Positions 6,772 to 55,682 of a stretch of DNA of 64,000 bases are shown one piece after another. Numbering within the stretch: the first letter of the stretch is position 1; each line of letters begins with the position of its first letter. The stretch spans positions 652 through 64,651 of the forward strand of contig CALVJQ010000002.1 in NCBI GenBank assembly GCA_944332265.1, written 5' to 3'. The stretch is from an uncultured Bacilli bacterium (GTDB lineage: Bacteria; Bacillota_I; Bacilli_A; RF39; UBA660). Position numbers and translations under genes: made by a program. The notes below the pieces were generated by a model, which worked only from the letters and a program-made list of their open reading frames with translations, did no database searches and was not told the DNA's origin.

Positions 6772-8736
6772 ATGAAAAAGAAAAAAATATTATTGGGACT
6801 GGGAGTTTTAATTATTGTAATACTCTTAGTAATTGGAGGATTTTGGATAGGAAAAAATAAGTTAAATAAAGAAGAAGTTAATCAAGTTAAAAGTATGATT
6901 GCTTTACAAAGTGAAAAAGAAAAGGATTTTAAAATTGATGGTTATACAATTGATGAACCTAATGTTATTTTGAATCCTTATGGCAATTCGCCATTAACAG
7001 CATTAATAATGTTTGAAACTGATAAGGAGGTTGAAGTAACAGTTACTATAAAAGGTGATGATAAATTATCAACTTTTACACATACTTTTGCTAAAGAAAA
7101 AGAGCATTATTTACCTATTTATGGTTTATATGCTGATAGAAAAAATAAAGTTATAATTGAATATGAAGATGATAATCAAGAAATTAAAAAGGAAATAGAA
7201 ATTAAAACTGATAAATTACCTTCTAATATGGCTTTGCCAACGGAAGTAGATGCTAAAAAAAGTAAATTAACTAACGAATTATATTTCTTTACACCATCTA
7301 GTAGTGGGTATACTATGGCATATGATGTAAATGGTGATGTTAGATGGTATTTTACTAATTATGCATTATGGAAAATAGACAGATTAGAAAATGGAAATCT
7401 TTTAGTTAGTACGGAAAGATTAGTTAATAGTCCATATTATATGACAGGATTATATGAAATGGATTTATTAGGTAAGATATATAATGAATATAGTCTTCCT
7501 GGGGGATATCACCATGATTATTATGAAATGGAAAATGGAAATCTTTTAGTTGCAAGTGATGACTTTAATAACGAAAGTGGTACTGTAGAAGATTATATTG
7601 TTGAATTAGATAGGAAAACTGGAGAAATAGTAAAAACATTTGATTTAAAAGATGTTTTAAAGATGACAGATGGTAAAAGTGAAAACTGGTCTGATTATGA
7701 TTGGTTTCATAATAATTCAGTTTGGTATGATAAAAAAACTAATTCTATTACCTTGTCAGGTCGTCATCAAGATGCTGTTATTAATTTAGACTATGATACA
7801 GGAAAATTAAATTGGATTATTGGTGATTCAACTAATTGGAGTGAAGAATATCAAAAGTATTTCTTTACACCTGTTGGCGACGACTTTGAATGGCAATGGA
7901 GTCAACATGCGGCAATGATTACTCCAGAAGGATATGTATTTATCTTAGATAACGGTAATAATAAATCAAAAATTAAAGAAGAATATGTTGATGCTTCTAA
8001 TAGTTATACTAGAGGAGTTATGTATAAGATAGATACTGATAAAATGACAATTGAACAAGTATGGGAATATGGTAAAGAAAGAGGAAGTGAATTTTATTCT
8101 CCATACATATCTGATGTTGATTATTTAGATAAGGATCATTATATAGTTCATTCTGGTGGTATAGTATTTGTAGATGGTAAAAATTCTAATCAACCTGCGG
8201 GATTTAGTAAAGGTGCTGAATTATTATCTGATACAGTAGAAATTATTGATGATGAAGTAGTTTTTGAAATAAAATTACCAACAAATAATTATCGTGTTGA
8301 AAAAATGAGTTTATATACTGATGATAATAATTTTAAATTGGGTGAAGCAAACAGAATTGGTTCACTTGGTGAAACAAAGAAAGATGATAAAAAATTAACA
8401 TTTAATTTATTTACTAAAAAAATCGATGATACTTATAAAAAACATGATATTAGTATTGATAAAGAGGTTGATCGTTTAGTAGTTAAAGGTCAATTTAAAA
8501 GAACTGATTCAGTTAATATTGTATTATATAAAGGAATAACTGCTAATTATTATAACCTACGAGTAAGTAAAAAACCATATACTGCTTTATGTGTTGATAT
8601 TTTTACAGAAGAAGAGACTAAAAATGGAATTGTTGTTACTAAGTATATTAATAATGATGGTTTAAAAGGTAAGTATGCTGTATATATTGAAATAAATGGA
8701 ACATTATATAATACTAATGAATATGTTGAATTTTAA
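6772..8736 (+). CDS. signal-anchored beta-propeller protein, arylsulfotransferase (ASST)-like
   Basis: 654 aa with an N-terminal TM helix; repeated 'ENGNLLV' and 'GGYHHDYY' and Trp-rich propeller-like repeats recalled from the ASST family. Not verified by search. Confidence 0.45.
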   Translation: MKKKKILLGLGVLIIVILLVIGGFWIGKNKLNKEEVNQVKSMIALQSEKEKDFKIDGYTIDEPNVILNPYGNSPLTALIMFETDKEVEVTVTIKGDDKLSTFTHTFAKEKEHYLPIYGLYADRKNKVIIEYEDDNQEIKKEIEIKTDKLPSNMALPTEVDAKKSKLTNELYFFTPSSSGYTMAYDVNGDVRWYFTNYALWKIDRLENGNLLVSTERLVNSPYYMTGLYEMDLLGKIYNEYSLPGGYHHDYYEMENGNLLVASDDFNNESGTVEDYIVELDRKTGEIVKTFDLKDVLKMTDGKSENWSDYDWFHNNSVWYDKKTNSITLSGRHQDAVINLDYDTGKLNWIIGDSTNWSEEYQKYFFTPVGDDFEWQWSQHAAMITPEGYVFILDNGNNKSKIKEEYVDASNSYTRGVMYKIDTDKMTIEQVWEYGKERGSEFYSPYISDVDYLDKDHYIVHSGGIVFVDGKNSNQPAGFSKGAELLSDTVEIIDDEVVFEIKLPTNNYRVEKMSLYTDDNNFKLGEANRIGSLGETKKDDKKLTFNLFTKKIDDTYKKHDISIDKEVDRLVVKGQFKRTDSVNIVLYKGITANYYNLRVSKKPYTALCVDIFTEEETKNGIVVTKYINNDGLKGKYAVYIEINGTLYNTNEYVEF

Positions 8737-8825: not shown

Positions 8826-8900
8826 TGGTGCCGACTGCCGGATTTGAACCAGCGACCTACGCGTTACGAGGGCGTTGCACTACCACTGTGCTAAGTCGGC
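8826..8900 (-). tRNA. tRNA-Thr (anticodon CGU), CCA encoded
   Basis: Reverse complement folds as a cloverleaf: acceptor GCCGACT/AGTCGGC, D-arm GCAC-AGTGGTA-GTGC, anticodon loop CUCGUAA, T-arm GCTGG-TTCAAAT-CCGGC, discriminator A, then CCA. There is one C-C mismatch at 31-39. Confidence 0.85.
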
Positions 8901-10095: not shown

Positions 10096-10461
10096 TGGTG
10101 GAGCAGAGGAGAATCGAACTCCTGTCCAAACTACTCTGTTATATAACGTCTACAAGTTTAGTTAGATTTATAATTTCATTAAGAAGACGGCTATAACGTA
10201 CCTATTTCTTAACTATCCTAAAAAAGATTCATTATTAGATCTTAGGATATCTAATAATATAATCTATATATATTAACCCTTAATTTATCCTATAGATGAA
10301 AATAAATAAGAGTGCTTCTTAACCTTCTATTAGGCAAATGCTAAAGCATTTGAAGCGAAATTATATGACTCTTTGTCATTTTATTTTAATTGTGAATTTT
10401 AGGTAATTCCTACCACTTGCAGTCATACACAGACATAATCTGTCGAAACCTGGTCTGCCCC
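10096..10461 (-). ncRNA. ssrA: tmRNA (ssrA), about 366 nt
   Basis: Minus-strand 5' end GGGGCAGACCAGGTTTCGACAG and 3' tRNA-like end GGACAGGAGTTCGATTCTCCTCTGCTCCACCA. An internal tag frame GAC AAA GAG TCA TAT AAT TTC GCT TCA AAT GCT TTA GCA TTT GCC TAA TAG reads (D)KESYNFASNALAFA**. Confidence 0.85.
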
Positions 10462-19408: not shown

Positions 19409-20254
19409 CTATATTTTATTAAATTCAATTATTTCTTTATAAATTTCTTTTATTTGGTCTTGTTCTTTAATATTATAGTTGTTTAGAATTTTATTTATTT
19501 GGTCTTGTTCCTTTAATTTAGTATTTTTTAAAATTTTTTCAAAGTTAGTAATAGTAAGTTTAATACTTTCTTCGTCAGTTAAATGGCTATATGATTTAAT
19601 ACGCATAATACCATATTCAGTTTCTCTTTTAGTTATTGCTCCAATATAACTTGTTATATTACGATATATTTTAGGTTTAGTATATTCATTATATATCATT
19701 ATAGAATAAATTAGATTGTTTATATTATTATTTTTACTTTTTATGAATTTAGCATATTGATTTTTGAATTTAGCATATTGAACAATAATTTGTTCTTTTT
19801 TTATTTTTAAATCTTTATTTTTTAATGATATTTTCTTTTCTTTAGTTAATTCATTATACAAATGTGATATGTATAATATTATTAAAAACCATAATAAAGG
19901 TTTAATATCTGAAGGATTAGGGATTACTGTATCTACTTGATTAATAAAGTAATTATATGTAAATAAACTAAGAGCTATACTAACAACGCTTTCAATAATA
20001 AACATTGTGTTGCTAATCTTATTTTCTTTGGATATTACAGATGTTATATAGAAGTTGCGAATAAAAATTTCGAATACAACAATTAGGAAGATATTATTTT
20101 TTATAGTTGGAAATAAAGCTGATAATATTATTATATAAATAGATGGAATAAGAATATAATTGATTGATCGATTTTCTTTATTTTCTAAAATATTTAGTAT
20201 TATAGTTAGGGGAATAGTTAAAATAATTTGTATTATCAAAGTTAGTAAATCCAT
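19409..20254 (-). CDS. polytopic membrane hypothetical protein with cytoplasmic C-terminal domain and internal duplications
   Basis: 281 aa with SD AGGAGG; 4-5 TM helices; direct DNA repeats TTTATTTGGTCTTGTTC(T/C)TTTAAT x2 and TGAATTTAGCATATTGA x2 inside the ORF (protein 'NNYNIKEQDQI' and 'QYAKF' duplications). Confidence 0.5.
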   Translation of the reverse strand: MDLLTLIIQIILTIPLTIILNILENKENRSINYILIPSIYIIILSALFPTIKNNIFLIVVFEIFIRNFYITSVISKENKISNTMFIIESVVSIALSLFTYNYFINQVDTVIPNPSDIKPLLWFLIILYISHLYNELTKEKKISLKNKDLKIKKEQIIVQYAKFKNQYAKFIKSKNNNINNLIYSIMIYNEYTKPKIYRNITSYIGAITKRETEYGIMRIKSYSHLTDEESIKLTITNFEKILKNTKLKEQDQINKILNNYNIKEQDQIKEIYKEIIEFNKI

Positions 20255-20602: not shown

Positions 20603-22717
20603 TTAGTTTTGATTATTATCCAGACTATTAATATATTGATCAAGTTCATGAGTTAAATCTTCAGTTGTTACTTGTTTATTATTATTTTGAAGCTCTTCAT
20701 ATTTTTTTTCAGGGTTGAAAATAGTATCTATTGATAATGGATTATTATCTTGAGGTTCATTATTTTCTTCTTTATTTGATTCTTGAGTTACTTCCTCTTC
20801 TTTTTCTTCTTCAGATGGAAGTTCTTCATTATTAGCTATTTCTGTTGGTAATGGATTTTCTACCGGTATTTGTTCTTCTTCAATTTTTTCTGGTTCTAAT
20901 ACTGATTCTTCATTTAGATTACTTTCATTGGAAGTATTTTCTTCAATATTTGAAGTTAATTGTTCATCTGGTTGAGATATTTCAGAATCTTCATTATCAA
21001 CATCATCTAATATATTAGAAGGAATAGTTATTTGAGCTTCATCTATTACTTTTATTCCTCTTTTAGGAGGTGCTGATATTTCGTCAATTGGTGTTTCATC
21101 TAGAGAATCTATTAATTGATAATCTTCTTTTATATATTGATCATAATCACGAGGAATAATTTTACTTGTATTATTTATTAATTCAATATCAATATCTTTT
21201 ATAAGGTCTAAACCTAAATATTCTTCAAGACGATTTATAATATCTATTGGAGCTTCAGGAAATTGACGGCGATGTTTAATATCAATTACTATTTGTGCTA
21301 GTTCTTTAAGAACATCTTTATCTTTGTTTTTAGAAGCGATATCAATTAAGCCAGATTTTTTAGAAGTCAAACGATTTTTTAAACGATTAATTTCTTCTTC
21401 TGCTTCTTTAATTTTGTCACGAAGATTTTCACATTCATATTTGATTATTCTTGTAGCATTTTCAATATCTTCAGCTTCATCATTTTTAAATGATGTAGCA
21501 ATTTTTTCTGCTTCTTTAATGTCTTCTTTCTTTTCATCTAGAGATGCTTTTAAACGAGCTTTTGCTCCAATGCTAGTATCTGGTGTTTCATCATATGCTC
21601 TTTGAAATTCACTATAATCTTTTTTCATTGTAGCAATCATTTCAGCTATTATTTTATCTTTAGCATTATAATTAAATTCACTATCTTTATCAACTAAAAG
21701 AATTTTATTATTTAGCTGATTTAAATCTTCTTGCCATTTTGTAATACGTTCATTTAGAAATTCAGTTCTAACTTTTTCTGGAGTATTTGCTTCAAGAATA
21801 TTATATGTTTTTTGGTCAATTTCATTGGCAAATGAATCACGAGCTTGAGTGGCTCTTAATAATTCCTCTTCTAAAGCATTATTTATAGGAACATTAATAT
21901 AAGGAATTCTAATTACTTGATTAAGAAGGTTTATTAAATATGGACGAGTTTTAGATAAATCTTCTTTATTATTAATAATTTCTTTTATTTTAGATTCTAA
22001 ATACTTAGGATCTTTTTTTATTTCTTCTAAACGTATATTTAGGGCTTTTTTCTTACTTTCTAATTCAGCGATTCTTTTGTTGTTTTTTTCTTTTTTTACT
22101 TTATCTATATAGTTATCGCGGTTTTCTAAGGATGCTTGAGTTTCTGCAAGTATTTTCTTTTTCTTATCTATTTTTTCTTCAAGGACTTTAATAGCTTCTG
22201 TATAATCAATTATTTGTTGTTGGATTTCATCATAGTTTCCACTTTGACTATTTAGTTCGTCATTTAGTTTATTTATGTTTTCTGTTGTTTCAGTAATTAA
22301 CATATTATAATGATTAACTATCTCAGTATCAGTTGTTGTACTTATACGTTCTTGCATGCTTAATAGATATTTTTCTTGACTATCTTTATTGTTTCTTAAT
22401 AAAGTTGTTTGATCATATAATAGTTTTTCTTCATCTTTTAGATTTGCTAATTCCTTGTTTTTTTCTTTTAATTCGTTTTTTAATGATTGAAGTTGTTTTT
22501 TAGTTATTATTTCAATGTTACGATCGGCCATTTCAGCGCTTGTATCATATATTTCTTCTTCAGAAATAGAATTTATATCATCTATTTCTTGGTTGTAACT
22601 TTTTAATTTTGTTTCGATTTCTTCTTCTTCGACACGTAAAGATGGACCATCACTTTTGGAGCGTGACATTTTTACTAATACATCCAAATTCCAAAATACT
22701 TTTAATTTATCGTCCAT
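20603..22717 (-). CDS. large acidic coiled-coil protein (704 aa), unknown function
   Basis: Heptad-rich K/E sequence through most of its length, a Glu/Asp/Asn-rich low-complexity C-terminus, and no TM or NTP-binding motif. Confidence 0.55.
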   Translation of the reverse strand: MDDKLKVFWNLDVLVKMSRSKSDGPSLRVEEEEIETKLKSYNQEIDDINSISEEEIYDTSAEMADRNIEIITKKQLQSLKNELKEKNKELANLKDEEKLLYDQTTLLRNNKDSQEKYLLSMQERISTTTDTEIVNHYNMLITETTENINKLNDELNSQSGNYDEIQQQIIDYTEAIKVLEEKIDKKKKILAETQASLENRDNYIDKVKKEKNNKRIAELESKKKALNIRLEEIKKDPKYLESKIKEIINNKEDLSKTRPYLINLLNQVIRIPYINVPINNALEEELLRATQARDSFANEIDQKTYNILEANTPEKVRTEFLNERITKWQEDLNQLNNKILLVDKDSEFNYNAKDKIIAEMIATMKKDYSEFQRAYDETPDTSIGAKARLKASLDEKKEDIKEAEKIATSFKNDEAEDIENATRIIKYECENLRDKIKEAEEEINRLKNRLTSKKSGLIDIASKNKDKDVLKELAQIVIDIKHRRQFPEAPIDIINRLEEYLGLDLIKDIDIELINNTSKIIPRDYDQYIKEDYQLIDSLDETPIDEISAPPKRGIKVIDEAQITIPSNILDDVDNEDSEISQPDEQLTSNIEENTSNESNLNEESVLEPEKIEEEQIPVENPLPTEIANNEELPSEEEKEEEVTQESNKEENNEPQDNNPLSIDTIFNPEKKYEELQNNNKQVTTEDLTHELDQYINSLDNNQN

Positions 22718-36508: not shown

Positions 36509-36642
36509 TTTATGTCCTCCCTTCGTCTATATCTAGTATAGACTTGCTCCGTAATGAATTCCCCGACTTTTTTGGATAGTTATTTAACAACCTTTCCTAG
36601 TGTATCGGCAACCTCACACATCTAAGCAGTCATACGTTTTTA

Positions 36643-38299: not shown

Positions 38300-39058
38300 T
38301 TAATATATAGTTCTTCCTTCTTCTATCATTAATTTATCTACAATGATAGCAATAAATTCACCATTAGTTGGCTTTGTTTTATAGTAATCAACACAATTAG
38401 AAAAAAGCTCGTTAGAATATTCGTAATTACCTCTATCCCAACCAGTCTCAATTGCACTTCTTATAGACCTTTCAATACAACTTTCTTTTTTGGAAAAAGA
38501 TTCTGCTAGCATAGGATATATTTCTTTTGTGATTGACGTTAATAATGATGGTTCCATATAACATTCATATATTGCCTTTCTAAGATAATGAAAACCATTC
38601 TTATCAGGAGCTATACCTAATTTTTTCAATATTTCAGCAACTTTATCGTATATTGATATTTTATGAAAATTATATTTTTCCTGTTTATTTTTTATTTCTT
38701 TTAAAGATATTATTAATTCATTTATTTTATAATTCTTAGGAATAACATTAAATATTTGATAATTAGAAGCTGCTAGATTATAGCAATCTAGTCTTATATT
38801 ATCAATAATAATTGTACGTGATAGAAGAACTTCATTTTTATAATTCATTAACAATTCTAAAATGTTTTCTCCTGGAATAGTTCCATCAACTAATATTGCA
38901 TCCAAGTCATCACTACTATTGATAATTTGTAGTGCGTCTTTGTAATTATCTGCTGTATATTTTATTGTTATTTCTGTTGTTCTAGATGTTATTTCTTGCT
39001 TAAGTTTGTTCGCTTCTTCGTTACTACATACTACCAATGTATTCATATTATTTTTCAT
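38300..39058 (-). CDS. spo0A: Spo0A-family response regulator (receiver domain plus Spo0A_C DNA-binding domain)
   Basis: C-terminal 110 aa closely parallel B. subtilis Spo0A_C (HYLRKAIYECY...ITKEIYPMLAESF...CIERSIRSAIETGWDRGN...KPTNGEFIAIIVDKLMIEE). The receiver has Asp in 'AILVDGTIPG' and Lys in 'VIPKNY', but an N-terminal 'SNEE' replaces the usual DD. Confidence 0.75.
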   Translation of the reverse strand: MKNNMNTLVVCSNEEANKLKQEITSRTTEITIKYTADNYKDALQIINSSDDLDAILVDGTIPGENILELLMNYKNEVLLSRTIIIDNIRLDCYNLAASNYQIFNVIPKNYKINELIISLKEIKNKQEKYNFHKISIYDKVAEILKKLGIAPDKNGFHYLRKAIYECYMEPSLLTSITKEIYPMLAESFSKKESCIERSIRSAIETGWDRGNYEYSNELFSNCVDYYKTKPTNGEFIAIIVDKLMIEEGRTIY

Positions 39059-39128
39059 GTTCCTTTTTCTCTTTCTATGTTTTTAGTTTAAATTATACTT
39101 ACTTGGTATTATGTACTATTTTGTCGAC

Positions 39129-45344: not shown

Positions 45345-45372
45345 AAAGAAGTGCTATTTGGCACTTCTTTCT
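45345..45372. terminator. bidirectional terminator AGAAGTGCxxxxxxGCACTTCT between the NlpC/P60 gene and whiA
   Basis: Read in the sequence. Confidence 0.45.
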
Positions 45373-46286
45373 TTGTGTTTTTCGACTAATTTTTTTACTT
45401 TAATAAAATAATGATTTATTCCTGACTTACCTATTTTACGGCCAGTTTCTGTAGATATAATATCGGCCAATTCCTGAAGGGAAGTTTCAGGATATGCTTC
45501 ACGATATTTAATTGCTGATTGAACGTTTTCATCTAGTAAACCAAGAAGGTCGTGCTCTTTTATATAGTTTATGTCATCTAATTGTTTCAAGCCAGTTTTT
45601 AAAACTTTTTCTTGATTAGCAATTTCACAGTTATTTAAGCGATTAACCATATTTTTATGATCACGGTATATACGAATATCTTCAAAATAAAAGAAACAAT
45701 TGGTTGCACCAAATAAGCGAATTAACTCGCTTATCATTTCAGCACTTTTTATATATGTCATATAGTTATTATTTCTTTTAATTACTTTGGCAGTTATATT
45801 ATAGCGCTTTAATAATTTAGCAAGAAATAAACCCTCTTTTTGGGTTGAGGTATTGAATTCTAAATGATATCCTGCTTTACTTGGATCATTGATACTACCA
45901 CAGGCAAGAAATGCTCCTTTAAGAAAAGAAGTTAACTCTTCTTGACTATTTAGAAAATATTCTTCCGGTAGTATTTTTTTATTATTTTTAATAATGCTTA
46001 AGGATTCAAGTATAGTATCCACTTTTTCGTTTATTTCTAATATATAGATTTGTTTTATACGAAATCGTTTTTGGTTACGAATAGTTATTTTAATATTAAC
46101 ACTAAAATTATTTTTTATATCTTTATAGATTCTTCTAGCTACTGAGGCATTTTCCATAATAAGTGCTATCTTATCTTTTTTTATACGAGCAGAGAATCTA
46201 ATAAATGATGATAGTTCAACTAGTGATTCTAATACGGAGATATCATTTTTAGTTATTTCTTCTTTTAATCTTGTTGTAAAGGTCAT
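45354..46286 (-). CDS. whiA: DNA-binding cell-division/sporulation regulator WhiA
   Basis: 310 aa; degenerate LAGLIDADG-like N-domains plus C-terminal HTH; conserved position downstream of yvcK. Confidence 0.8.
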   Translation of the reverse strand: MTFTTRLKEEITKNDISVLESLVELSSFIRFSARIKKDKIALIMENASVARRIYKDIKNNFSVNIKITIRNQKRFRIKQIYILEINEKVDTILESLSIIKNNKKILPEEYFLNSQEELTSFLKGAFLACGSINDPSKAGYHLEFNTSTQKEGLFLAKLLKRYNITAKVIKRNNNYMTYIKSAEMISELIRLFGATNCFFYFEDIRIYRDHKNMVNRLNNCEIANQEKVLKTGLKQLDDINYIKEHDLLGLLDENVQSAIKYREAYPETSLQELADIISTETGRKIGKSGINHYFIKVKKLVEKHKERSAK

Positions 46287-46287
46287 T

Positions 46288-47235
46288 TTATTCGTCCTCT
46301 ATTAAGTAAGAAAATATTAGATAAGCAGTTTTAAGGGAATTGTGTCTTACATAACCTTCTTCAACTTTGAATAATTTTTCTTCTAAAACTTCAACCCCCA
46401 TATTTTGTAGAGTTTTATTATCAACAGCTACAGGATCTTTACCTTCAGATTTAGCTAGTAAAGACATATTTTTAGGAATTTTAGAATTATTAGCAATAAC
46501 AGCATTAATAGTTCCAGCTCCTAAATATTTTTCTAAGAAATTAATATGATCACTAACTTTAAAATTATCTGTTTCTCCTGGTTGAGTAAGCATATTACTT
46601 ATATACATTTTACGAGCTTTGGAGTTTTTAATAGCTTCTTGAATTTCGGGAATAATAATATGAGGTAGAACACTTGTTAATAGAGATCCCGAACTAAAAA
46701 TAATTAAATCGGCTTTTTTAATTTCTTCTAATACTTTTGGTGTAACTTTAACTTTTTTACTATATTTTAAGTCAACGACTTTTCTTTTTGATTCTGTTAT
46801 TTGGGCTTCACCTATTATTTCATATCCTTCTTTTGTAATACCGACTAAATCAACATTATCTTCTGTAATAGGAAGAAGTTTTCCTTTGACATCTAATAAA
46901 TCACATAATATTGGCAATGAATGAGCAAAATCACCTTTCATTTCTAATAGGGCTGTCATTATTAGATTTTTAATAGAATGGTTTCCAATACTACTATCAT
47001 TACTAAAACGATAGTTAAATAATTCTTTTACTCCTTTAGATTCTGTAGACATTGCCATTAATACTTTAGTTATATCCCCAACAGCGGGAATTGAAAATTC
47101 TTCACGAAGACGGCCTGTACTTGTCCCATTGTCAGACATACTTACAACTGCAGTTATATCCATAGGAAATTGAATCATTCCTTTTAACAATTGTGACATT
47201 CCACTTCCGCCACCAAATATTACAACTTTTTTCAT
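46288..47235 (-). CDS. yvcK: YvcK/CofD-like gluconeogenesis-morphology factor (UPF0052)
   Basis: MKKVVIFGGGSGMSQLLKG...; ATG at 47235 with GGAGG 7 nt upstream. The track's longer ORF begins upstream of the SD. Confidence 0.8.
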   Translation of the reverse strand: MKKVVIFGGGSGMSQLLKGMIQFPMDITAVVSMSDNGTSTGRLREEFSIPAVGDITKVLMAMSTESKGVKELFNYRFSNDSSIGNHSIKNLIMTALLEMKGDFAHSLPILCDLLDVKGKLLPITEDNVDLVGITKEGYEIIGEAQITESKRKVVDLKYSKKVKVTPKVLEEIKKADLIIFSSGSLLTSVLPHIIIPEIQEAIKNSKARKMYISNMLTQPGETDNFKVSDHINFLEKYLGAGTINAVIANNSKIPKNMSLLAKSEGKDPVAVDNKTLQNMGVEVLEEKLFKVEEGYVRHNSLKTAYLIFSYLIEDE

Positions 47236-47300
47236 AATATAACCTCCATTAAATATTATGATAACACATTTATTTAACTTGTAATAATAAGTTATAAAGT

Positions 47301-47490
47301 AATTGACAAAATACGACATTTTAAAACAATTTATGACAATATTAGACAATATATGACTAATATAGACTATTTATGACAATAAAAGACTAAATACGATATT
47401 TTATGACATTATTAGACATTTATCGACTATTATAAACATAATTAGACTTATTACGACATAATTTGATATTATTCGACAAATTTCGACAAT
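47301..47490. repeat. array of 19 consecutive, exactly phased 10-bp units, consensus (A/T)T(A/T)NGAC(A/T)(A/T)T
   Basis: Unit sequence: AATTGACAAA ATACGACATT TTAAAACAAT TTATGACAAT ATTAGACAAT ATATGACTAA TATAGACTAT TTATGACAAT AAAAGACTAA ATACGATATT TTATGACATT ATTAGACATT TATCGACTAT TATAAACATA ATTAGACTTA TTACGACATA ATTTGATATT ATTCGACAAA TTTCGACAAT. Two units contain a perfect Spo0A box (TTCGACA = TGTCGAA). Confidence 0.7.
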
Positions 47491-47520
47491 ATAAAAAGAA
47501 AAAAAGAAGGTTTAACCTTC

Positions 47521-48741
47521 TTATCCTCTAGTAGTCCACTTCCAGCCTTTGCTACTTTTTAAACCTGATATTGATTGTACAGCGGTTGCTCCAGTATTAG
47601 CTTTAAATTTGTTCCATTGACTTCTACCACTTTCAGAGAAGAAGTAACCATAAGAAATAGCGTAATGTAAGTGAGCTCCATAAGTACAATAATCATATCC
47701 TCCAGAAAGGGCATGAGAAGTTGAATAACCACCAACAGTTCCAATTACTTGACCTTTAGTAATTTTTTGACCAGATGAAACTTTAATACTTAATAAATGG
47801 GCCATTTCTACAGTGTATTTTTTACCATCTACTAAAGCATGCATGTATACAATATTTCCACCACAATCTGTTTTACGAGCTACGTAAATAACAGTTCCGT
47901 TAGCTGGAGCATATACTGGTGTTCCCTCTGGATTACCACCTAGGTCCATACCGGCATGACTTTTTTTGTAAGCTTGCGTTACTTTTCCTTTGGTTAATGG
48001 ACGAGAAAATGAACCTGAACCTTCCATTTTAGAGAAGTAACAAACTTCTACATCATCATTATCTTTACAACCTGCTTCTTCAAATAGTTTAATCATATTT
48101 TTTTGAGCTTTAATTTGGTCTGCAAAACCCATACCTATACTAGCTTGTTTATCAACATATTCGTGAAGTTCTTCTAATTGCGTTTCATAAGAAGCAATTG
48201 AATTTGTTAAAGTAACGTTGTCTTCTGCTAATTTAACTTGTAATTTTTCATTTTCTTCTATTAGGACATCTAAGCTATCAAGTTGTTCTTGAGTATAGTC
48301 TACAACTTGTTCAACTACTGCTTGTCTTTCCATCATTTCTGAAATACTTGTTGCGGAGAATATATAATCCGTATAAACTTCATCAGGATTTAAATTAGAA
48401 TATTGTAAAGATACTAAAACATCTTTCATTTCTTCTTGTTTTATTTTTATTTCTTCTTGGCTTTCAGCAACTTTCTTTTTAGCATCTTCGACACGTTGTT
48501 CATTTAGAATGATTGTGTTATTGGCATCTTTTATAGCTTGAGATTTTTTTTCAATATTTTGCTTTGCTTCATTTGTTAAAGCATCTGCTTCAGCTTTTTG
48601 ACTTTCTAGTTCTGCTACTTTATTTTTGTAATCGATTAATCTTTCCGCTTTGACTTCTTTGACTTTGAATGGACATGTTGTAACAAAAACAATAGCAAAT
48701 ATTATAAACAGATTAATTATTTTTTTTGATTTCTTTATCAT
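47521..48741 (-). CDS. EnvC/PcsB-like coiled-coil M23 peptidase (FtsEX-associated)
   Basis: Signal peptide, a long coiled coil, and a C-terminal M23 domain (HxxxD ... HLHYAIS); it overlaps ftsX upstream. Confidence 0.7.
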   Translation of the reverse strand: MIKKSKKIINLFIIFAIVFVTTCPFKVKEVKAERLIDYKNKVAELESQKAEADALTNEAKQNIEKKSQAIKDANNTIILNEQRVEDAKKKVAESQEEIKIKQEEMKDVLVSLQYSNLNPDEVYTDYIFSATSISEMMERQAVVEQVVDYTQEQLDSLDVLIEENEKLQVKLAEDNVTLTNSIASYETQLEELHEYVDKQASIGMGFADQIKAQKNMIKLFEEAGCKDNDDVEVCYFSKMEGSGSFSRPLTKGKVTQAYKKSHAGMDLGGNPEGTPVYAPANGTVIYVARKTDCGGNIVYMHALVDGKKYTVEMAHLLSIKVSSGQKITKGQVIGTVGGYSTSHALSGGYDYCTYGAHLHYAISYGYFFSESGRSQWNKFKANTGATAVQSISGLKSSKGWKWTTRG

Positions 48742-49652
48742 ATCTTTAAATACTTCCTTACTGTTATATAACTACCAAACATACCAACTAATGATCCAAT
48801 AATTAGCAAAGCAATAGATGTATAAAAGACAAATGGTATTGGAGTTATCATTCTTATATAATTTGTAAATAGATGGCCTTCTAATTTATCAAAAGCAAAG
48901 ATATAACCCCAAATAGTAGCTAGGATTGGGATAAGTGACCCTATCATACCTAAGAATAAACCTTCTATTACAAATGGTAATTTTATTGTAAAATTACTTG
49001 TTCCAACAAGTCGCATAATTTCTATTTCATTTTTACGGGCAAAAATAGTTAATTTAATAGTATTACATATTAAGAAGGTGGTAACTACTATTAAGCCAAT
49101 AATTATAACAATAGTTACTTTTTCAACAACATTAAATAAAGGAATCATGTTGTCTACAACGTCTTCGCTATATTTAACGTTACTTACTTTATCGATGTTT
49201 TTTAATGTCTCAGCAGTTTTTCCTAAATCTTCGACATTTTTAACTGATATTATAAATTCTGATTCTAATGGATTTGTTTCTTCTGTCCAACTTTCCATTA
49301 TAGAATATAAAGAAGAACTTTCTTCTGTGTTTTTCATAGTTTCTTCTTTAATTGTCTCTTTATCTTTATAAATCAATTCATCACCTTTAACATTCTTTAT
49401 AGCTAGAATTTTACTTCTTATAGAGTTAATATCATCTTCAGTAGCAGTTTTATCTATAAAAGCGATAATAGTTAATGTATTTTCGATATCGTGAGTAAAA
49501 TTATTTACATTAGCAGAAAAAATTATCGCAAGAGAGACAATAACTAAAGTTATTGTTGTACAAATTATAGAAGCAATACTTAAGCTAAAATTACGAAAGA
49601 TACTTTTTACTGCGTTAGCAATATTACGACTAAATATTCTTATGGCTTTCAT
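48738..49652 (-). CDS. ftsX: cell division permease FtsX
   Basis: 4-TM FtsX-like permease with a large first extracellular loop; overlaps ftsE. Confidence 0.8.
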   Translation of the reverse strand: MKAIRIFSRNIANAVKSIFRNFSLSIASIICTTITLVIVSLAIIFSANVNNFTHDIENTLTIIAFIDKTATEDDINSIRSKILAIKNVKGDELIYKDKETIKEETMKNTEESSSLYSIMESWTEETNPLESEFIISVKNVEDLGKTAETLKNIDKVSNVKYSEDVVDNMIPLFNVVEKVTIVIIIGLIVVTTFLICNTIKLTIFARKNEIEIMRLVGTSNFTIKLPFVIEGLFLGMIGSLIPILATIWGYIFAFDKLEGHLFTNYIRMITPIPFVFYTSIALLIIGSLVGMFGSYITVRKYLKI

Positions 49653-50340
49653 CGGCTGTATAACCTCCTTTCTTAGAATCTGAGGTTAAAACACCATTTT
49701 CTAAAGTAATAACTCTTTTTTTCATAGAATTTACAATATCTTTATCGTGTGTAACCATTACAACGGTTGTTCCCATATCTTTATTAATGCTATTAATTAC
49801 TTTTATAATTTCCTTTGATGTTTTAGGATCTAAGTTTCCTGTTGGCTCATCACATATCAGTAGTTTAGGCTCATTAACTATTGCACGAGCTATACAAACT
49901 CTTTGTTGTTCACCACCTGATAATTCATTTGGAAAACTTCTTGTTTTTTCTTTTAAACCAACACGATCTAGAGCTTTTATTACACGTGATTTTATGATAT
50001 TGCTTTTTAAACCCAAATTTTCGAGACCAAAAGCTACATTTTCATAAACTGTTAGTTTAGGTAATAATTTAAAATCTTGAAAAACAATACCTAACTTTCT
50101 TCTTAATTTATAAACACGACTATTATATAGCTTAGCAACATTTATTCCACCAACCATTACTTGACCTTTTGTTGGTTTTTCTTCACGGTAAAGTAGTTTT
50201 ACTAAAGTTGATTTTCCACAACCAGAGGCTCCTGTAACAAAGACAAATTCGCCTTTTTCAATTGATAATGATAAATCAGCAATTGCCGTTACGCCATTTT
50301 TATAAACTTTGTAGCAATTTTTTATATCAATGAATTTCAT
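49630..50340 (-). CDS. ftsE: cell division ABC ATPase FtsE
   Basis: Walker A GASGCGKST, signature LSGGEQQR, Walker B LLICDEPT. ATG at 50340 after AAGGTGG. Confidence 0.85.
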   Translation of the reverse strand: MKFIDIKNCYKVYKNGVTAIADLSLSIEKGEFVFVTGASGCGKSTLVKLLYREEKPTKGQVMVGGINVAKLYNSRVYKLRRKLGIVFQDFKLLPKLTVYENVAFGLENLGLKSNIIKSRVIKALDRVGLKEKTRSFPNELSGGEQQRVCIARAIVNEPKLLICDEPTGNLDPKTSKEIIKVINSINKDMGTTVVMVTHDKDIVNSMKKRVITLENGVLTSDSKKGGYTADESHKNI

Positions 50341-50396
50341 TATACACCACCTTATCATATTAATTATAGCAAAGAAACAAGCTAAAAAAAACCCCT

Positions 50397-52897: not shown

Positions 52898-53563
52898 TTA
52901 TTTGTCTAAAGACCAATCAATCTCTTTTAAATTATGTTCTTTTAAGAATTGATTAGTTTTAGAAAATGGATGGCTACCAAAGAAACCATAACGTGCTGAA
53001 AATGGAGAAGGATGTGGGGAAGTTAAAATCAAATGATGAGGATTAGTTATTAATTTAGCTTTTTCTTTAGCAAAATTTCCCCATAGTATAAATACTACTG
53101 GTTCTTCTTTGGTATTTAAAACTTTAATTATATAATCTGTTAAGAGTTCCCACCCTAAATTACGATGAGAAGCTGGCTTATCTTTTTCTACAGTTAAAAC
53201 CGCATTTAATAGCAAAACTCCTTCTTTGGCCCATTTAGTTAAATCGCCTTTAGAAGAAGGCTTTATTCCTAAATCACTTTCTAATTCTTTGTATATATTT
53301 TGTAATGATGGAGGAATCTTAATTCCTTCTTGAACAGAAAAAGATAAACCGTGAGCTTCGCCGACTCCATGATATGGATCTTGTCCAACAATGACGACCT
53401 TAGTATTGGCAAATGAAGTTAATTTTAGTGCATTAAAAACATAGTTTTTGGGAGGAAAGATTGTTTTAGTAGCATATTCATTTTCAATTATTTTATAAAA
53501 CTTTTTAAATCCTTCACTTTCCCATATAATTTTTAATTTTTCATCCCAATCATTACCTATCAT
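52898..53563 (-). CDS. ung: uracil-DNA glycosylase (family 1)
   Basis: 'VVIVGQDPYHG' and 'GVLLLNAVLTV...HSPLS'-type motifs; 221 aa. Confidence 0.9.
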   Translation of the reverse strand: MIGNDWDEKLKIIWESEGFKKFYKIIENEYATKTIFPPKNYVFNALKLTSFANTKVVIVGQDPYHGVGEAHGLSFSVQEGIKIPPSLQNIYKELESDLGIKPSSKGDLTKWAKEGVLLLNAVLTVEKDKPASHRNLGWELLTDYIIKVLNTKEEPVVFILWGNFAKEKAKLITNPHHLILTSPHPSPFSARYGFFGSHPFSKTNQFLKEHNLKEIDWSLDK

Positions 53564-53646
53564 ATTATCACCACTATTTATTAATTTAACATAATTAATA
53601 TTTAATGTTAATTCTTTTCATAAAAAAAGAGTAAATTTTACTCTTT

Positions 53647-53940
53647 TTATGATAATTTATTTATGATATCACTCATTTTTAAGTGAAAATCGCAAATTGA
53701 GTTTTGAATAGAATTTGTTAATACTAGTATTGCTTCAACAAAATCATCTTCTGTATAATTTTTGTTTTTTAAATCGGTTAGTTCTTTATTAATAATCATT
53801 TCATTTTCTGCACCTATTTCTTTACAAAATCCATTTGAGATAGCTGCAAGCATTTTTAATTGTTCAAAAACTATTTCTTGTTTTTCTCTTAATGGTAATT
53901 TTTTAATATCACTTAAATATTCATTAAAATCGTTTTCCAT
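53647..53940 (-). CDS. hypothetical protein (97 aa)
   Basis: ORF with short spacing to the downstream gene; no recognisable motif. Confidence 0.4.
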   Translation of the reverse strand: MENDFNEYLSDIKKLPLREKQEIVFEQLKMLAAISNGFCKEIGAENEMIINKELTDLKNKNYTEDDFVEAILVLTNSIQNSICDFHLKMSDIINKLS

Positions 53941-53948
53941 AAATCCTC

Positions 53949-55682
53949 CTAAAATAATTTTCTGGCTTCTTCAATATCTTTTTCAGTAACTTCTTCTTTT
54001 TGAGCTAATCTATTTAATTTAGCATATGACCCAGTTACTTTAGCAATTGTTCTTTGTAATTTATTCATACCATAGAATCTCTGTCTTGCTTGTTCTATTT
54101 CATTAGTGAATTCTCCTCTTGTTTTTGCAGAGCCTTCTTTTACTTGACTAGCTTTTACATAATATAAGTTAAATAATGGTTCTTCACCAAAATAGTCTTT
54201 ACAAACAGCTATTTTATTCATTTCATTTATTTTACTTTGTTCTTCAGTCATTTCTTGTTGGTTATTAACATTTATTTTTCTAGCTATTAATGATGCGAAA
54301 CAATCTTGTAAATATTTTAATGAATCGTTTCTTGACTCTTGAATCCTTCTTATTTCCTCTTCGCTTTGACTATATAAATTATTATTATATTGTTGATTTT
54401 TTAAAATATTGTAAAGTGATACTAATTGGTCAACTGACATTAATCTTGTTGCAGTAGATAACTTACTATAATATTCTACTTGGTTTCGACTATTAATTGA
54501 TCCCCATTTTCTAATAGAATCTATAATTTTGTTATTTATTGCCATTTTCAATTCTTCTGGAGTAACTAATCTAGGATTATTTTCATTAATATGGAACACT
54601 TCTTCATATGTACCTGATAATTGCGTTTTTATAGCATTTTTGATTTTTTCTTGTTCTTCTCTTGGTAATGCATTATATTGTTTTATATAGTTATTATAAG
54701 CTTGTGTATAAATTTCTATACTATTTCCCATTTTTAATTTACGCATTAAAGAACGAGAGTTTAATTGTGTTTTTATGTCATTACCAAACCCATCATTATT
54801 TAACAAATATTGAATTTGAGAATGGTAACAAGCTACTGCTAATTCCATTAGTGCGTACACTGAGTTACGACTATGAAATTGGTCTTTTTTAAATAATCCT
54901 TTGTCGTTACTATACTTATTTGATAATCTATTCATTTCAAAAGCTTCTGCTACAATATCATCAAAACTGTATGTTCCATATCCTGTATATGCATCGCGGA
55001 TTTCTTGCTTTTGTTCATATGTTAAACCAGTTATAGCTGTTCTTGGATCTTCAAGTTTTTTAATTATATTTTCATTAATTTCTTTTTGCTTTTCTTCGTC
55101 AGTTAAATATTTTGAAGAATATAATTCTGGTTTTTTTTCTGGAGTTGATGTTCTAGTTGTATATATTGTTCTTACATCAGATGTTGGGTAAGTTGTAGTA
55201 GAACGTGGTTGAGTTTGTTGTTTAACTTCTGATTTTTTTACTTCTTTTTCTCTTCTTAGAAGTTGGTCAAGTTCAACACTATTGATTATATATGATTCTA
55301 GATATCCTCTAGCACAATCTATTGGATCGTTTGCTATTCTACTAGCTAGAGTAAATGCTTCTCCATATTCAATTTTTATATCATTTCTCTTGAAACGAGT
55401 TTCAATTTCTTTTTCTATTGCTGATGAATTAAATGTTTTACTTTTTTCAATATCTTTTAAAGCATTATTGATTTTTCTTTGTATTTTTTTCTTTTCAGCA
55501 ATGTCTTGTGCTCTACTTAATTTGATATATAAATTATCAAGATTTTTTCTTTGACGATTATTTTTACATTTAATGTTTGATTCAGCAATATTAAACAATA
55601 TTAAAAATTTAACTACGTCTTTTCTTTTCTTTTTTATAGCAAGATCTTCTAGAGATTTATCTTCATTATACATTTTATACAC
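53949..55682 (-). CDS. large cytoplasmic K/E-rich hypothetical protein (577 aa)
   Basis: Long ORF with no TM or known catalytic motif. Confidence 0.5.
   Translation of the reverse strand: MYKMYNEDKSLEDLAIKKKRKDVVKFLILFNIAESNIKCKNNRQRKNLDNLYIKLSRAQDIAEKKKIQRKINNALKDIEKSKTFNSSAIEKEIETRFKRNDIKIEYGEAFTLASRIANDPIDCARGYLESYIINSVELDQLLRREKEVKKSEVKQQTQPRSTTTYPTSDVRTIYTTRTSTPEKKPELYSSKYLTDEEKQKEINENIIKKLEDPRTAITGLTYEQKQEIRDAYTGYGTYSFDDIVAEAFEMNRLSNKYSNDKGLFKKDQFHSRNSVYALMELAVACYHSQIQYLLNNDGFGNDIKTQLNSRSLMRKLKMGNSIEIYTQAYNNYIKQYNALPREEQEKIKNAIKTQLSGTYEEVFHINENNPRLVTPEELKMAINNKIIDSIRKWGSINSRNQVEYYSKLSTATRLMSVDQLVSLYNILKNQQYNNNLYSQSEEEIRRIQESRNDSLKYLQDCFASLIARKINVNNQQEMTEEQSKINEMNKIAVCKDYFGEEPLFNLYYVKASQVKEGSAKTRGEFTNEIEQARQRFYGMNKLQRTIAKVTGSYAKLNRLAQKEEVTEKDIEEARKLF

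What the first reader, a model, noticed from the sequence alone, without database searches (positions are those of the whole stretch)
47301..47490. Nineteen perfectly phased 10-bp repeats with a GAC core, upstream of yvcK-whiA and containing Spo0A boxes
The whole 190-bp intergenic stretch between the EnvC-like M23 gene and yvcK parses into 19 head-to-tail decamers, (A/T)T(A/T)NGAC(A/T)(A/T)T, with no insertions or deletions. The conserved GAC therefore falls on the same helical face for 19 turns. Two units are perfect Spo0A boxes (TTCGACA), and the GACA(A/T) cores also resemble the GACAC motif reported for WhiA, whose gene lies in the operon immediately downstream. A Spo0A ortholog is also encoded in this window. 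An exact helical-repeat array of this length in a bacterial promoter region is very unusual. It could be a cooperative binding platform, a curved-DNA upstream element, or both. The slot where rapZ normally precedes yvcK is occupied by this array instead.
Basis: partly seen in the sequence, partly recalled or inferred. Interest (0 to 1): 0.8.

Follow-up and report, generated by a model that had tools for sequence, protein, structure and literature searches.

The report
Phased decamer box array upstream of yvcK
A gut bacterium carries, just upstream of the promoter of two cell-envelope and division genes, 12 to 23 head-to-tail 10-bp units that share only a GTC core in an A/T background; it is most likely a young, amplified landing pad for a DNA-binding regulator, with the cell's own Spo0A-like protein the best candidate.

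Summary
Window 47301-47490 parses into 19 gap-free decamers. On the + strand 15 carry GAC in phase, against a maximum of 4 in 5000 shuffles. The genes lie on the minus strand, where the unit reads WWTGTCNWAW. The array sits between the terminator of an M23 peptidase gene and the extended -10 promoter of yvcK-whiA, at about -54 to -237.

Units share only the G-T-C core. The other seven positions are as alike as random A/T, with no G/C at the six pure-A/T positions. This argues for selection on the core and its phase.

The array is lineage-specific. It occurs in this Candidatus Coprovivens species (alleles of 12, 19 and 23 units) and its sister species (15 units). More distant relatives have a ~108-bp spacer with one orthologous box.

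The geometry is a 7-bp box plus 3 bp, head-to-tail, as in Spo0A sites. Two units are perfect 0A boxes, the conserved bases are Spo0A contact positions G2 and C4, and a conserved Spo0A-type protein is encoded nearby.

The WhiA reading is not supported. This genome has a canonical WhiA site (GATACACT + GTTGT) in the rpsJ leader, and the array has none.

Binding is untested. I rate it a new variant of a known kind, of moderate interest.

The parts
47301..47490 (-). Array of 19 in-phase decamers, WWTGTCNWAW on the gene strand. It spans roughly -54 to -237 from the inferred transcription start of yvcK.
47472..47488 (-). Two perfect 0A boxes, TGTCGAA-aat-TGTCGAA on the minus strand, forming the promoter-distal end of the array.
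47302..47308 (-). Promoter-proximal box TGTCAAT. It is orthologous to the single box TATGT(C/A)AA kept by array-less relatives. Its core lies 41 nt upstream of the -10 hexamer and exactly 40 bp from the TGTG of the extended -10.
47331..47400 (-). Approximate position of the seven units missing in the 12-unit allele (L021, L189). This middle block is also the one that gains a 40-bp (4-unit) duplication in the 23-unit allele (L027). Its units are mostly weak, non-G5 boxes.
47258..47285 (-). Inferred sigma-A promoter of yvcK-whiA: -35-like ATTACA (47285-47280) and TG-extended -10 TGT-TATCAT (47266-47258). The extended -10 is conserved in all relatives.
   Evidence: inferred; no transcript data
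47243..47247 (-). Ribosome-binding site GGAGG of yvcK.
47494..47522 (-). Intrinsic terminator of the M23 peptidase gene (8-bp stem plus T-run), immediately upstream of the array.
46288..47235 (-). yvcK (CofD family, 315 aa), the first gene downstream of the array.
45354..46286 (-). whiA (WhiA_N, LAGLIDADG_WhiA and HTH_WhiA domains), the second gene of the operon.
47521..48741 (-). M23 peptidase with a PcsB-like coiled coil. It is the last gene of ftsE-ftsX-M23, upstream of the array.
38300..39058 (-). Candidate binder: a Spo0A-type protein of 252 aa. The Spo0A_C DNA-binding domain is present, the N-terminal domain is an atypical receiver-like domain, and the recognition helix reads ..ERSIRSAIETGWDRGN.
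39119..39128 (+). 0A-type box TTTTGTCGAC upstream of the spo0A-like gene. The box is present in four lineages of the clade.

Best explanation
The array is a young, lineage-specific amplification of a promoter-upstream regulator box. It now forms a head-to-tail, 10-bp-phased multi-site platform for a DNA-binding regulator. The most likely binder is the organism's own Spo0A-type protein.

Proposed mechanism (all inferred, none shown):
- Spo0A-type proteins bind 7-bp TGTCGAA-like boxes as head-to-tail pairs separated by 3 bp.
- The better boxes would nucleate binding. These are the two perfect ones at the distal end and four GTCG units (three TGTCGTA, one AGTCGAT).
- The many weak boxes in register would allow cooperative extension along the DNA.
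- The proximal boxes, at about -54 and -64 and four helical turns from the extended -10, would place the regulator next to RNA polymerase.
- Transcription of yvcK-whiA would then become a steep function of regulator level.
- Gain and loss of whole units (12, 19 or 23) by recombination between identical units changes the number of sites without changing their register.

Shown here: the anatomy, the selection signature on the G-T-C core and on phase, the phylogenetic restriction, the copy-number polymorphism, and the presence and conservation of the Spo0A-type protein and of a 0A-type box at its own gene.

Inferred: that any protein binds, that it is Spo0A, and the sign of the effect on transcription.
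For: 1. Geometry. The period is exactly 10.0 bp with no indel over 190 bp. This equals a 7-bp box plus 3 bp, the arrangement found in footprinted Spo0A sites, which are two 0A boxes, imperfect ones allowed, separated by 3 bp (PMC2731898).

2. Sequence. Two units are perfect TGTCGAA. 14 of 19 units have 2 or fewer mismatches, against 1.3% of background 7-mers. The mean is 1.89 mismatches against 5.14 in background.

3. Where the information sits. G2, T3 and C4 are conserved at 17, 19 and 17 of 19. G2 and C4 are two of the three base-specific contact positions reported for Spo0A (PMC3485338). The third, G5, is kept in 6/19 units here but in 8/10 intact cores of the sister species.

4. Selection rather than decay. 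The seven non-core positions have a pairwise identity of 0.49, which equals random A/T. There are 0 G/C at the 114 positions of the six pure-A/T columns (P about 6e-16). G2 is retained far more than G5 (Fisher p = 6e-4) despite AT-biased composition.

5. The candidate binder. A Spo0A_C protein is encoded 8 kb away. Its DNA-binding domain is nearly invariant across the clade and aligns to the Spo0A-DNA complex structure.

6. Autoregulation pattern. A 0A-type box (TTTTGTCGAC, TTTTTTGTCGTT, TTTTTGTCGATTT) lies upstream of the spo0A-like gene in four lineages. One version is the same 13-mer as units of the sister array. This fits the autoregulation known for Spo0A.

7. Origin. The proximal unit aligns with a single box TATGT(C/A)AA that array-less relatives keep 38-42 nt upstream of the -10. 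A lineage at 89% YvcK identity has a two-box proto-pair at 10-bp spacing.

8. Precedent. A metagenome contig (L118) has five tandem 0A boxes at 10-bp phase upstream of a ParB-HTH gene.
Against: - No binding or expression data exist; the organism is uncultured.
- G5, a Spo0A contact base, and A6 are not conserved in the window's array. The ancestral box in many relatives is TGTAAA, a poor 0A box.
- Apart from the box at the spo0A-like gene, the 64 kb shows no enrichment of 0A boxes or tandem box pairs. There are 7 pairs against 4.6 expected, and 9 single boxes against 3.8 expected, two of them in the array.
- The Spo0A-type protein has an atypical N-terminal domain: no Pfam Response_reg hit, and the acidic pair is replaced. 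Its activity and oligomerisation may therefore differ from canonical Spo0A.
- The protein is identical in its DNA-binding helix in relatives that lack the array.
- Individual units decay reciprocally between the two species, and one sister lineage carries a 1-bp deletion that breaks the register. Constraint on any one unit, and on phase, is therefore not absolute.
- A (T/A)GTC core in an A/T background is short enough to fit other head-to-tail binders.
Confidence: 0.4

Rival explanations
1. The array is a binding platform for a different head-to-tail regulator. Candidates are an OmpR/PhoB-type winged-helix response regulator or an uncharacterised factor that recognises (T/A)GTC every 10 bp. 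The resemblance to the 0A box would then be coincidental.
For: - Only W-G-T-C is strongly conserved, and G5 and A6 of the 0A box are not.
- The ancestral box TGT(C/A)AA is a poor 0A box.
- OmpR/PhoB-family regulators are known to bind tandem direct half-sites at 10-11 bp periods (established knowledge, not tested here).
- Degenerate (T/A)GTC decamer arrays occur in unrelated contexts, for example phage contig L030.
Against: - No such regulator is encoded near the locus.
- Perfect TGTCGAA units and the TGTCGA-rich sister array fit Spo0A better than any other named motif I compared. CtsR RGTCAAA, WalR TGTWAH-N5 and the PhoB 11-bp period all fit worse by inspection.
- A 0A-type box is conserved at the spo0A-like gene.
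Confidence: 0.2
2. The array acts structurally, as intrinsically curved or easily wrapped A/T-rich upstream DNA. Curvature or polymerase wrapping would stimulate the weak -35, extended -10 promoter without a dedicated regulator.
For: - Three wedge models put the array among the more curved 190-bp stretches of the window: top 12%, 0.14% and 7%. The mean 31-bp bend is 32-34 degrees against 16-20 degrees overall (parameter tables recalled from memory).
- Spacers are pure A/T.
- The array lies directly upstream of the promoter and in register with it.
Against: - Curvature does not require one specific trinucleotide, yet all G/C in 190 bp is confined to the G and C of GTC and the base after it.
- A/T order in the spacers is random (identity 0.49), so A-tract phasing is not conserved.
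- A period of 10.0 rather than 10.5 bp gives a superhelical, not planar, bend.
- Another spot in the window (about 53531-53720) is predicted to be more curved by all three models.
Confidence: 0.15
3. The array is a functionless minisatellite. A 10-bp tandem repeat arose by slippage or unequal recombination in a tolerant intergenic spot, drifts in copy number, and has no regulatory role.
For: - Copy number is polymorphic (12, 19, 23), through events bounded by identical units.
- The array is confined to two sister species.
- Some units are fully decayed in the sister species, and one lineage has a register-breaking 1-bp deletion.
- Near-perfect decamer repeats with a TGTC core are common in viral and metagenome contigs.
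Against: - Neutral decay in a 28% GC genome should erase G and C first. Instead G and C of the core are kept in 17/19 units while A/T positions are randomised.
- There is no G/C gain at the 114 positions of the six pure-A/T columns.
- There is no indel in 190 bp of low-complexity A/T-rich DNA.
- The array has persisted since before the split of two species with 93% YvcK identity, and both ends remain alignable.
Confidence: 0.15
4. WhiA autoregulation: WhiA, encoded in the downstream operon, binds the GACA cores through its sigma-region-4-like HTH domain.
For: - GACA is present in 14/19 units on the + strand.
- WhiA is reported to bind additionally in a non-specific, oligomeric mode (PMC11701221).
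- WhiA autoregulation is known in Streptomyces (as cited in PMC11701221).
Against: - The WhiA core is GACAC in Streptomyces and GAYACRCY plus auxiliary GTTGT in Mollicutes. Binding is sensitive to single substitutions in the core.
- The array never has C at the fifth position and has no GTTGT.
- This genome has a textbook WhiA site in the rpsJ leader: GATACACT at 36606-36599 and GTTGT at 36591-36587. Its WhiA therefore probably has the canonical specificity.
Confidence: 0.05

Closest known systems
Spo0A binding sites (paired 0A boxes at abrB, spoIIG, the spo0A promoter, and phage phi29/Nf promoters)
   Same: The box is 7 bp and TGTCGAA-like. Boxes are direct, head-to-tail, and separated by 3 bp, giving a 10-bp period. 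Imperfect boxes sit next to perfect ones. Sites lie upstream of or overlap promoters. A Spo0A-type protein is encoded in the genome.
   Different: Known sites have 2 boxes, or a few clusters; here there are 12-23 contiguous boxes in one register. G5 and A6 are poorly conserved. The target is yvcK-whiA, not a known Spo0A target. The protein has an atypical receiver-like domain. Binding is untested.
OmpR/PhoB-type tandem half-site arrays (e.g. ompF F1-F2-F3, tandem pho boxes)
   Same: Contiguous direct half-sites at 10-11 bp are read head-to-tail by a response regulator upstream of a promoter, with graded affinities along the array.
   Different: Those arrays have 4-8 half-sites and other motifs. 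No such regulator was identified here. This comparison is from established knowledge, not tested.
Plasmid and phage iteron or centromere arrays (ParR-parC of pSK41 and R1, omega heptads of pSM19035, TubR-tubC)
   Same: Many short direct repeats in strict register are bound cooperatively into a helical nucleoprotein filament. A period below the helical repeat gives a superhelical path.
   Different: This array is chromosomal and sits between housekeeping genes. There is no partition or replication gene nearby and no DNA similarity to plasmids or phages. Units are far more degenerate.
Copy-number-variable promoter repeats (contingency or rheostat loci such as nadA TAAA tracts or hmw 7-bp repeats)
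   Same: A tandem repeat next to a promoter varies in unit number between strains.
   Different: Here the unit equals one helical turn and lies upstream of the -35, so unit changes preserve register and promoter spacing. Units are degenerate rather than identical. Change occurs by multi-unit recombination, not single-unit slippage.
MraZ operator upstream of the dcw cluster
   Same: Direct repeats with a 10-bp period (7-nt box plus 3-nt spacer in Mollicutes) lie upstream of cell-division and envelope genes in reduced Bacillota (from memory, not tested).
   Different: The MraZ motif contains GTG(G/T) and is repeated 3-4 times. No GTG occurs in the array.

Membership tests
Spo0A binding site (0A-box cluster) | Presence of the 7-bp 0A box TGTCGAA or near matches | tested here: met
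   There are 2 perfect boxes. 14/19 units have 2 or fewer mismatches, against 1.3% of background 7-mers.
Spo0A binding site (0A-box cluster) | Boxes in direct orientation separated by 3 bp (10-bp period) | tested here: met
   The period is exactly 10.0 and all units have the same orientation. The architecture is as described in PMC2731898.
Spo0A binding site (0A-box cluster) | Conservation at the base-contact positions G2, C4 and G5 | tested here: inconclusive
   G2 is kept in 17/19 and C4 in 17/19, but G5 only in 6/19 in the window. G5 is kept in 8/10 intact cores in the sister species. Contact positions are from PMC3485338.
Spo0A binding site (0A-box cluster) | A Spo0A protein with a conserved DNA-binding domain in the same genome | tested here: met
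   Pfam Spo0A_C 1e-32. The protein aligns to 1LQ1 residues 9-117 at 2e-23. The recognition-helix residues ER-IR-AIE--W-RGN are kept, and the domain is nearly invariant in the clade.
Spo0A binding site (0A-box cluster) | Canonical phospho-receiver domain controlling binding | tested here: not met
   No Response_reg hit in this protein or in any of 120 clade homologues. The acidic pair is replaced (VVCSNEE). There is only a weak match (E 0.008) to a receiver structure.
Spo0A binding site (0A-box cluster) | Demonstrated binding of Spo0A to the site | not testable with these tools
   This needs EMSA, footprinting, DAP-seq or ChIP.
WhiA target site | Core GACAC (Streptomyces) or GAYACRCY (Mollicutes) | tested here: not met
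   No unit has C at the fifth base, and GAYAC is absent from 47301-47490. Motif definitions are from PMC11701221.
WhiA target site | Auxiliary GTTGT motif downstream of the core | tested here: not met
   The array has no GTTGT or ACAAC (read directly). A positive control exists in the rpsJ leader: GATACACT at 36606-36599 plus GTTGT at 36591-36587.
Intrinsically curved upstream DNA / UP-like element | Predicted curvature well above the genomic background, with phased A-tracts | tested here: inconclusive
   The array ranks in the top 12%, 0.14% and 7% by three wedge models whose parameters were recalled from memory. A/T order in the spacers is not conserved.
Tandem-repeat contingency (phase-variable) promoter locus | Unit number varies between strains | tested here: met
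   Alleles of 12, 19 and 23 units are seen.
Tandem-repeat contingency (phase-variable) promoter locus | Repeat lies where unit changes alter promoter spacing or reading frame | tested here: not met
   The array lies wholly upstream of the -35. Changes are multiples of 10 bp and leave the promoter and its register intact.
Plasmid/phage iteron or centromere array | Adjacent replication or partition genes, or a mobile-element context | tested here: not met
   The neighbours are ftsE, ftsX, M23, yvcK and whiA in all strains. There is no blastn match in the plasmid or phage collections.
Known structured RNA | Match to an Rfam family | tested here: not met
   The only Rfam hits in the window are tmRNA and one tRNA, both elsewhere.

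The most novel reading that the evidence does not exclude
The array is a chromosomal, copy-number-tunable titration and threshold device for an orphan Spo0A-type regulator that does not depend on phosphorylation. It would have been built de novo within the last speciation by amplifying one promoter box. Twelve to twenty-three in-register weak sites would polymerise the regulator into a superhelical filament. That filament would both buffer the free regulator pool and switch yvcK-whiA (cell envelope and division) in an ultrasensitive way, and strains would differ in set-point through unit number.
Probability: 0.1. Interest if true: 0.75.

Novelty: new variant of a known kind. Interest (0 to 1): 0.5.

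Why it matters
If the array is bound by the Spo0A-type protein, it would be by far the longest in-register 0A-box array known. It would also be a natural snapshot of how a regulatory platform is born. One ancestral box can be traced to a two-box pair, to 12-15 units, and to polymorphic 19 and 23 units within one genus.

It would link a Spo0A descendant in a reduced, probably non-sporulating gut lineage to the yvcK-whiA envelope and division operon. That would give a handle on what Spo0A-type proteins do outside sporulation. The allelic series is a ready-made dose series for testing cooperative, phased binding.

If the array is only a minisatellite or curved DNA, it is a curiosity in one uncultured genus.

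Tried and rejected
- WhiA site: rejected because the core and auxiliary motifs are absent, although a canonical site exists at rpsJ.
- Mobile or plasmid/phage origin: no blastn match in the plasmid or phage collections, and the neighbours are housekeeping genes.
- Known RNA: no Rfam hit in the array.
- Regulon search in the window: no other tandem pair of the array PWM, and no excess of paired 0A boxes (7 against 4.6 expected).
- Other named motifs compared by eye and rejected: CtsR (RGTCAAA-nan-RGTCAAA; only one GTCAA unit), WalR (TGTWAH-N5, 11-bp period, W not C at position 4), PhoB (11-bp period), MraZ (needs GTG), DnaA box, IHF.
- Promoter cluster on the + strand: the scan finds 15 promoter-like matches against 4.0 expected. 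These follow trivially from GACA plus A/T and would only drive antisense transcription into the M23 gene, so I did not pursue them.
- Viral and metagenome pattern scans: these mostly returned unrelated near-perfect decamer repeats. The one similar degenerate array (L030) lies in a phage packaging region upstream of terS and is a different system.
- Unit-by-unit token alignment of the two species' arrays: uninformative because the registers differ by 1 relative to the ATG. The nucleotide alignment was used instead.
- Assembly artefact: rejected, because the same sequence appears in many independent assemblies.

Full report
**What is there**

It consists of 19 head-to-tail decamers without a single insertion or deletion.

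- On the + strand the unit is W-T-W-(A/C/T)-G-A-C-W-W-W, with G in 17, A in 19 and C in 17 of the 19 units.
- Exact GAC occurs in 15 units. The rest are GAT (2) or AAC (2).
- Nothing else in the 64 kb has more than 3 phased GAC or GTC in a 19-unit frame.
- In 5000 dinucleotide-preserving shuffles of the 285-bp spacer, the largest number of in-phase GTC was 4, against 15 observed.
- G+C Fourier power is sharply peaked at 10.0 bp: 3.37, against 0.17 at 10.5.
- The sequence is not an assembly artefact. Seven of ten independent metagenome assemblies carry an identical 19-unit array, and an eighth differs by one SNP.

**Context and orientation**

All relevant genes are on the minus strand. In order they are ftsE (49630-50358), ftsX (48738-49652), an M23 peptidase with a PcsB-like coiled coil (47521-48741), an intrinsic terminator (47522-47494), the array, a promoter, yvcK (CofD family, 46288-47235) and whiA (45354-46286).

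On the gene strand the unit reads WWTGTCNWAW. The promoter is inferred from conservation in all relatives. It has a TG-extended -10 (TGT-TATCAT, 47266-47258) and a weak -35 (ATTACA).

The array therefore spans roughly -54 to -237. Its proximal core is 41 nt upstream of the -10 hexamer and exactly 40 bp, or four units, from the TGTG of the extended -10. The same holds in the sister species.

Because the period is 10.0 and not about 10.5 bp, the cores drift about 17 degrees per unit. They wind once around the helix over the array. 'One helical face' holds only if the DNA is overwound on binding.

**Signature of constraint**

The units share nothing but the core.

- There are 18 distinct units among the 19.
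- Pairwise identity at the seven non-core positions is 0.49, the value expected for random A/T.
- There is no G or C at any of the 114 positions of the six pure-A/T columns. Other non-coding DNA in the window has 26.5% G+C, giving P of about 6e-16.
- The G and C of the core are kept in 17/19 units, while the G that follows in the 0A consensus is kept in 6/19 (Fisher p = 6e-4).

In a 28% G+C genome, neutral decay would remove G and C first. This pattern, together with the absence of indels, argues for selection on GTC at a 10-bp register in an A/T background, not for an ordinary decaying minisatellite.

**Evolution**

The organism belongs to Candidatus Coprovivens, an uncultured genus of gut Bacilli. 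I examined orthologous loci from 18 species-level genomes and about 40 further metagenome contigs.

- Only two sister lineages have the array. One is the window's species. The other is the C. excrementavium-like clade (YvcK 92-94% identical), which carries a stable 15-unit array rich in TGTCGA(A/T), with five fully decayed units.
- Lineages at 90% YvcK identity and below have a spacer of about 108 bp, with terminator and promoter only.
- Nucleotide alignment shows that both ends of the two arrays are orthologous.
- The promoter-proximal unit aligns with a single box TATGT(C/A)AA that array-less relatives keep at the same distance from the -10.
- One lineage at 89% identity has a two-box pair at 10-bp spacing.
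- Within the window's species there are three alleles: 12 units (L021, L189), 19 units (eight places) and 23 units (L027). They are produced by a 70-bp deletion or insertion bounded by identical units and by an exact 40-bp duplication.
- The extra units of the 19- and 23-unit alleles are the weakest boxes.
- Orthologous units have lost their cores reciprocally in the two species, and one sister lineage has a 1-bp deletion that breaks the register.

Selection therefore seems to act on the number and density of cores rather than on each unit.

**Who binds: WhiA**

The WhiA idea fails a direct test. The WhiA core is GACAC in Streptomyces and GAYACRCY with a downstream GTTGT in Mollicutes. Binding is sensitive to single substitutions in the core (PMC11701221).

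This genome carries that exact bipartite site in the rpsJ leader: GATACACT at 36606-36599 and GTTGT at 36591-36587, about 40 nt downstream of a TTGCAT-17-TATAAT promoter. Its WhiA probably has canonical specificity.

The array contains no GAYAC, because the fifth base is never C, and it contains no GTTGT.

**Who binds: Spo0A**

- Footprinted Spo0A sites are two 0A boxes, imperfect ones included, separated by 3 bp. That is a 10-bp head-to-tail repeat (PMC2731898).
- Base-specific contacts are at G2, C4 and G5 (PMC3485338).
- The array has two perfect boxes. It averages 1.89 mismatches per unit against 5.14 in background. Its information is concentrated at G2-T3-C4.
- The sister array keeps G5 in 8 of 10 intact cores.
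- A 252-aa protein with a Spo0A_C domain is encoded at 38300-39058 (E 1e-32). It aligns over the whole DNA-binding domain of the Spo0A-DNA complex entry 1LQ1. Its DNA-binding domain is almost invariant across the clade.
- Upstream of this gene, a 0A-type box is present in four lineages (TTTTGTCGAC, TTTTTTGTCGTT, TTTTTGTCGATTT). The last is the same 13-mer as units of the sister array. This is the pattern expected from Spo0A autoregulation.

**Weaknesses of the Spo0A reading**

- G5 and A6 are not conserved in the window's array.
- Many relatives have TGTAAA as the single box.
- There is no excess of paired boxes elsewhere in the 64 kb.
- The protein lacks a recognisable receiver domain: no Response_reg hit in any of 120 homologues, and the acidic pair is replaced.
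- Nothing has been tested at the bench.

**Other readings**

- Curvature. Three wedge models, with parameters recalled from memory, place the array in the top 12%, 0.14% and 7% of 190-bp stretches. A structural contribution is plausible. Curvature alone does not explain why every G/C is confined to one trinucleotide, nor why the A/T order is free.
- Plasmid or phage iteron or centromere origin. This is not supported. The neighbours are housekeeping genes, and there is no similarity to plasmid or phage records.
- Pattern scans. Near-perfect TGTC decamer repeats are common in viral and metagenome contigs. Long degenerate arrays are rare. The closest look-alike (L030, 13 units) sits in a phage packaging region upstream of terS. 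A contig with five tandem 0A boxes upstream of a ParB-HTH gene (L118) shows that multi-box 0A arrays in 10-bp register exist elsewhere.

**Verdict**

My best explanation is a recently amplified, copy-number-polymorphic, head-to-tail box array upstream of the yvcK-whiA promoter that serves as a cooperative binding platform. The Spo0A-type protein is the leading candidate binder (confidence about 0.4). The rivals are another regulator (0.2), a purely structural role (0.15), a functionless minisatellite (0.15) and WhiA (0.05).

It is a new variant of a known kind, namely tandem regulator-box arrays. It is of moderate interest, mainly as a natural series showing the birth and expansion of a regulatory array and as a lead to the function of Spo0A-type proteins outside sporulation.

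Noticed in passing
window 36587-36606 (minus strand), rpsJ leader: A canonical bipartite WhiA site lies about 40 nt downstream of a TTGCAT-17-TATAAT promoter and upstream of rpsJ. It has core GATACACT (36606-36599) and auxiliary GTTGT (36591-36587). It matches the Mollicutes WhiA operator described in PMC11701221, which suggests WhiA control of the ribosomal-protein operon extends to this Bacilli lineage.
   Followed up: partly
window 38300-39058 (minus strand); L192-L197: The Spo0A_C-domain protein has an atypical N-terminal domain. There is no Response_reg hit in any of 120 clade homologues, the acidic pair is replaced, and the Asp at the phospho-site position is kept. The gene sits inside the glycolytic gene cluster (pgk-tpiA-[spo0A-like]-gpmI), and this synteny is conserved across the clade. 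That is an odd home for a 'sporulation' regulator.
   Followed up: partly
window 39119-39128; L192, L194 and L196, about 60-70 nt upstream of the spo0A-like start: A 0A-type box (TTTTGTCGAC, TTTTTTGTCGTT, TTTTTGTCGATTT, on the strand opposite the gene) lies directly after the stop codon of the upstream gene in four lineages. It is aligned in three lineages and shifted by about 15 nt in the fourth.
   Followed up: partly
window ~53531-53720: This is the most strongly curved 190-bp stretch of the window by all three wedge models (end-to-end/contour 0.56-0.66). It overlaps the start of the UDG-family gene (52898-53563) and extends into the spacer before the next ORF (53949-55682).
   Followed up: no
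window ~20756-20900, inside ORF 20603-22717 (minus strand, 704 aa): Phased TTC at period 12 (8 of 12 frames) and TCT at period 9 (7 of 12) probably reflect a repetitive coding segment.
   Followed up: no
L118 5985-6054 (metagenome contig JAEEGL013670256.1, 47% G+C): Five tandem 0A boxes at 10-bp phase (four perfect TGTCGAA and one TGTCGAT) lie about 85 bp upstream of a gene for a ParB-HTH-domain protein. Two further 0A-like boxes lie just upstream, out of register by 2.
   Followed up: partly
L030 ~7600-7735 (IMG/VR contig IMGVR_UViG_3300038675_000641, 43% G+C): A 13-unit degenerate decamer array (TGTCTAATAA / AGTCTAATAT, A/T-only spacers) is very like the window's. It lies in a non-coding stretch about 700 bp upstream of terS-HNH-terL. 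It may be a packaging-site or terminase-binding array. A second repeat (a PQSYNFWV-coding-like tandem) lies next to it at 7900-8100.
   Followed up: partly
L191 ~515-560 (YvcK 89% lineage): This relative has no array but carries TGTCATA followed 10 bp later by TGTAAAT, and a further TGTAAAT 14 bp on. It looks like a proto-array stage.
   Followed up: no
L054-L059 (sister lineage P0003, seen on 44 contigs): A 1-bp deletion inside the array (GTCGTACAGTATC becomes GTCGTATGTATC) puts the distal 8 units out of register with the proximal units. Strict phase is therefore not indispensable in that lineage.
   Followed up: no
window 10096-10461 and 8829-8900 (minus strand): tmRNA (123.5 bits) and one tRNA are the only Rfam matches in the window.
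   Followed up: no
window 19409-20254 (minus strand): This 281-aa ORF has no Pfam match at E <= 0.001.
   Followed up: no
window 47261-47270 (minus strand) versus array unit 47311-47320: The promoter decamer AATGTGTTAT, which contains the TG of the extended -10, is in register with the array. It differs from unit AATGTCGTAT at only 2 of 10 positions. In the sister species TGTGGTATCAT compares with TGTCGTATTAT at 9 of 11 positions. This may hint that the unit derives from the promoter itself, or it may be coincidence.
   Followed up: no
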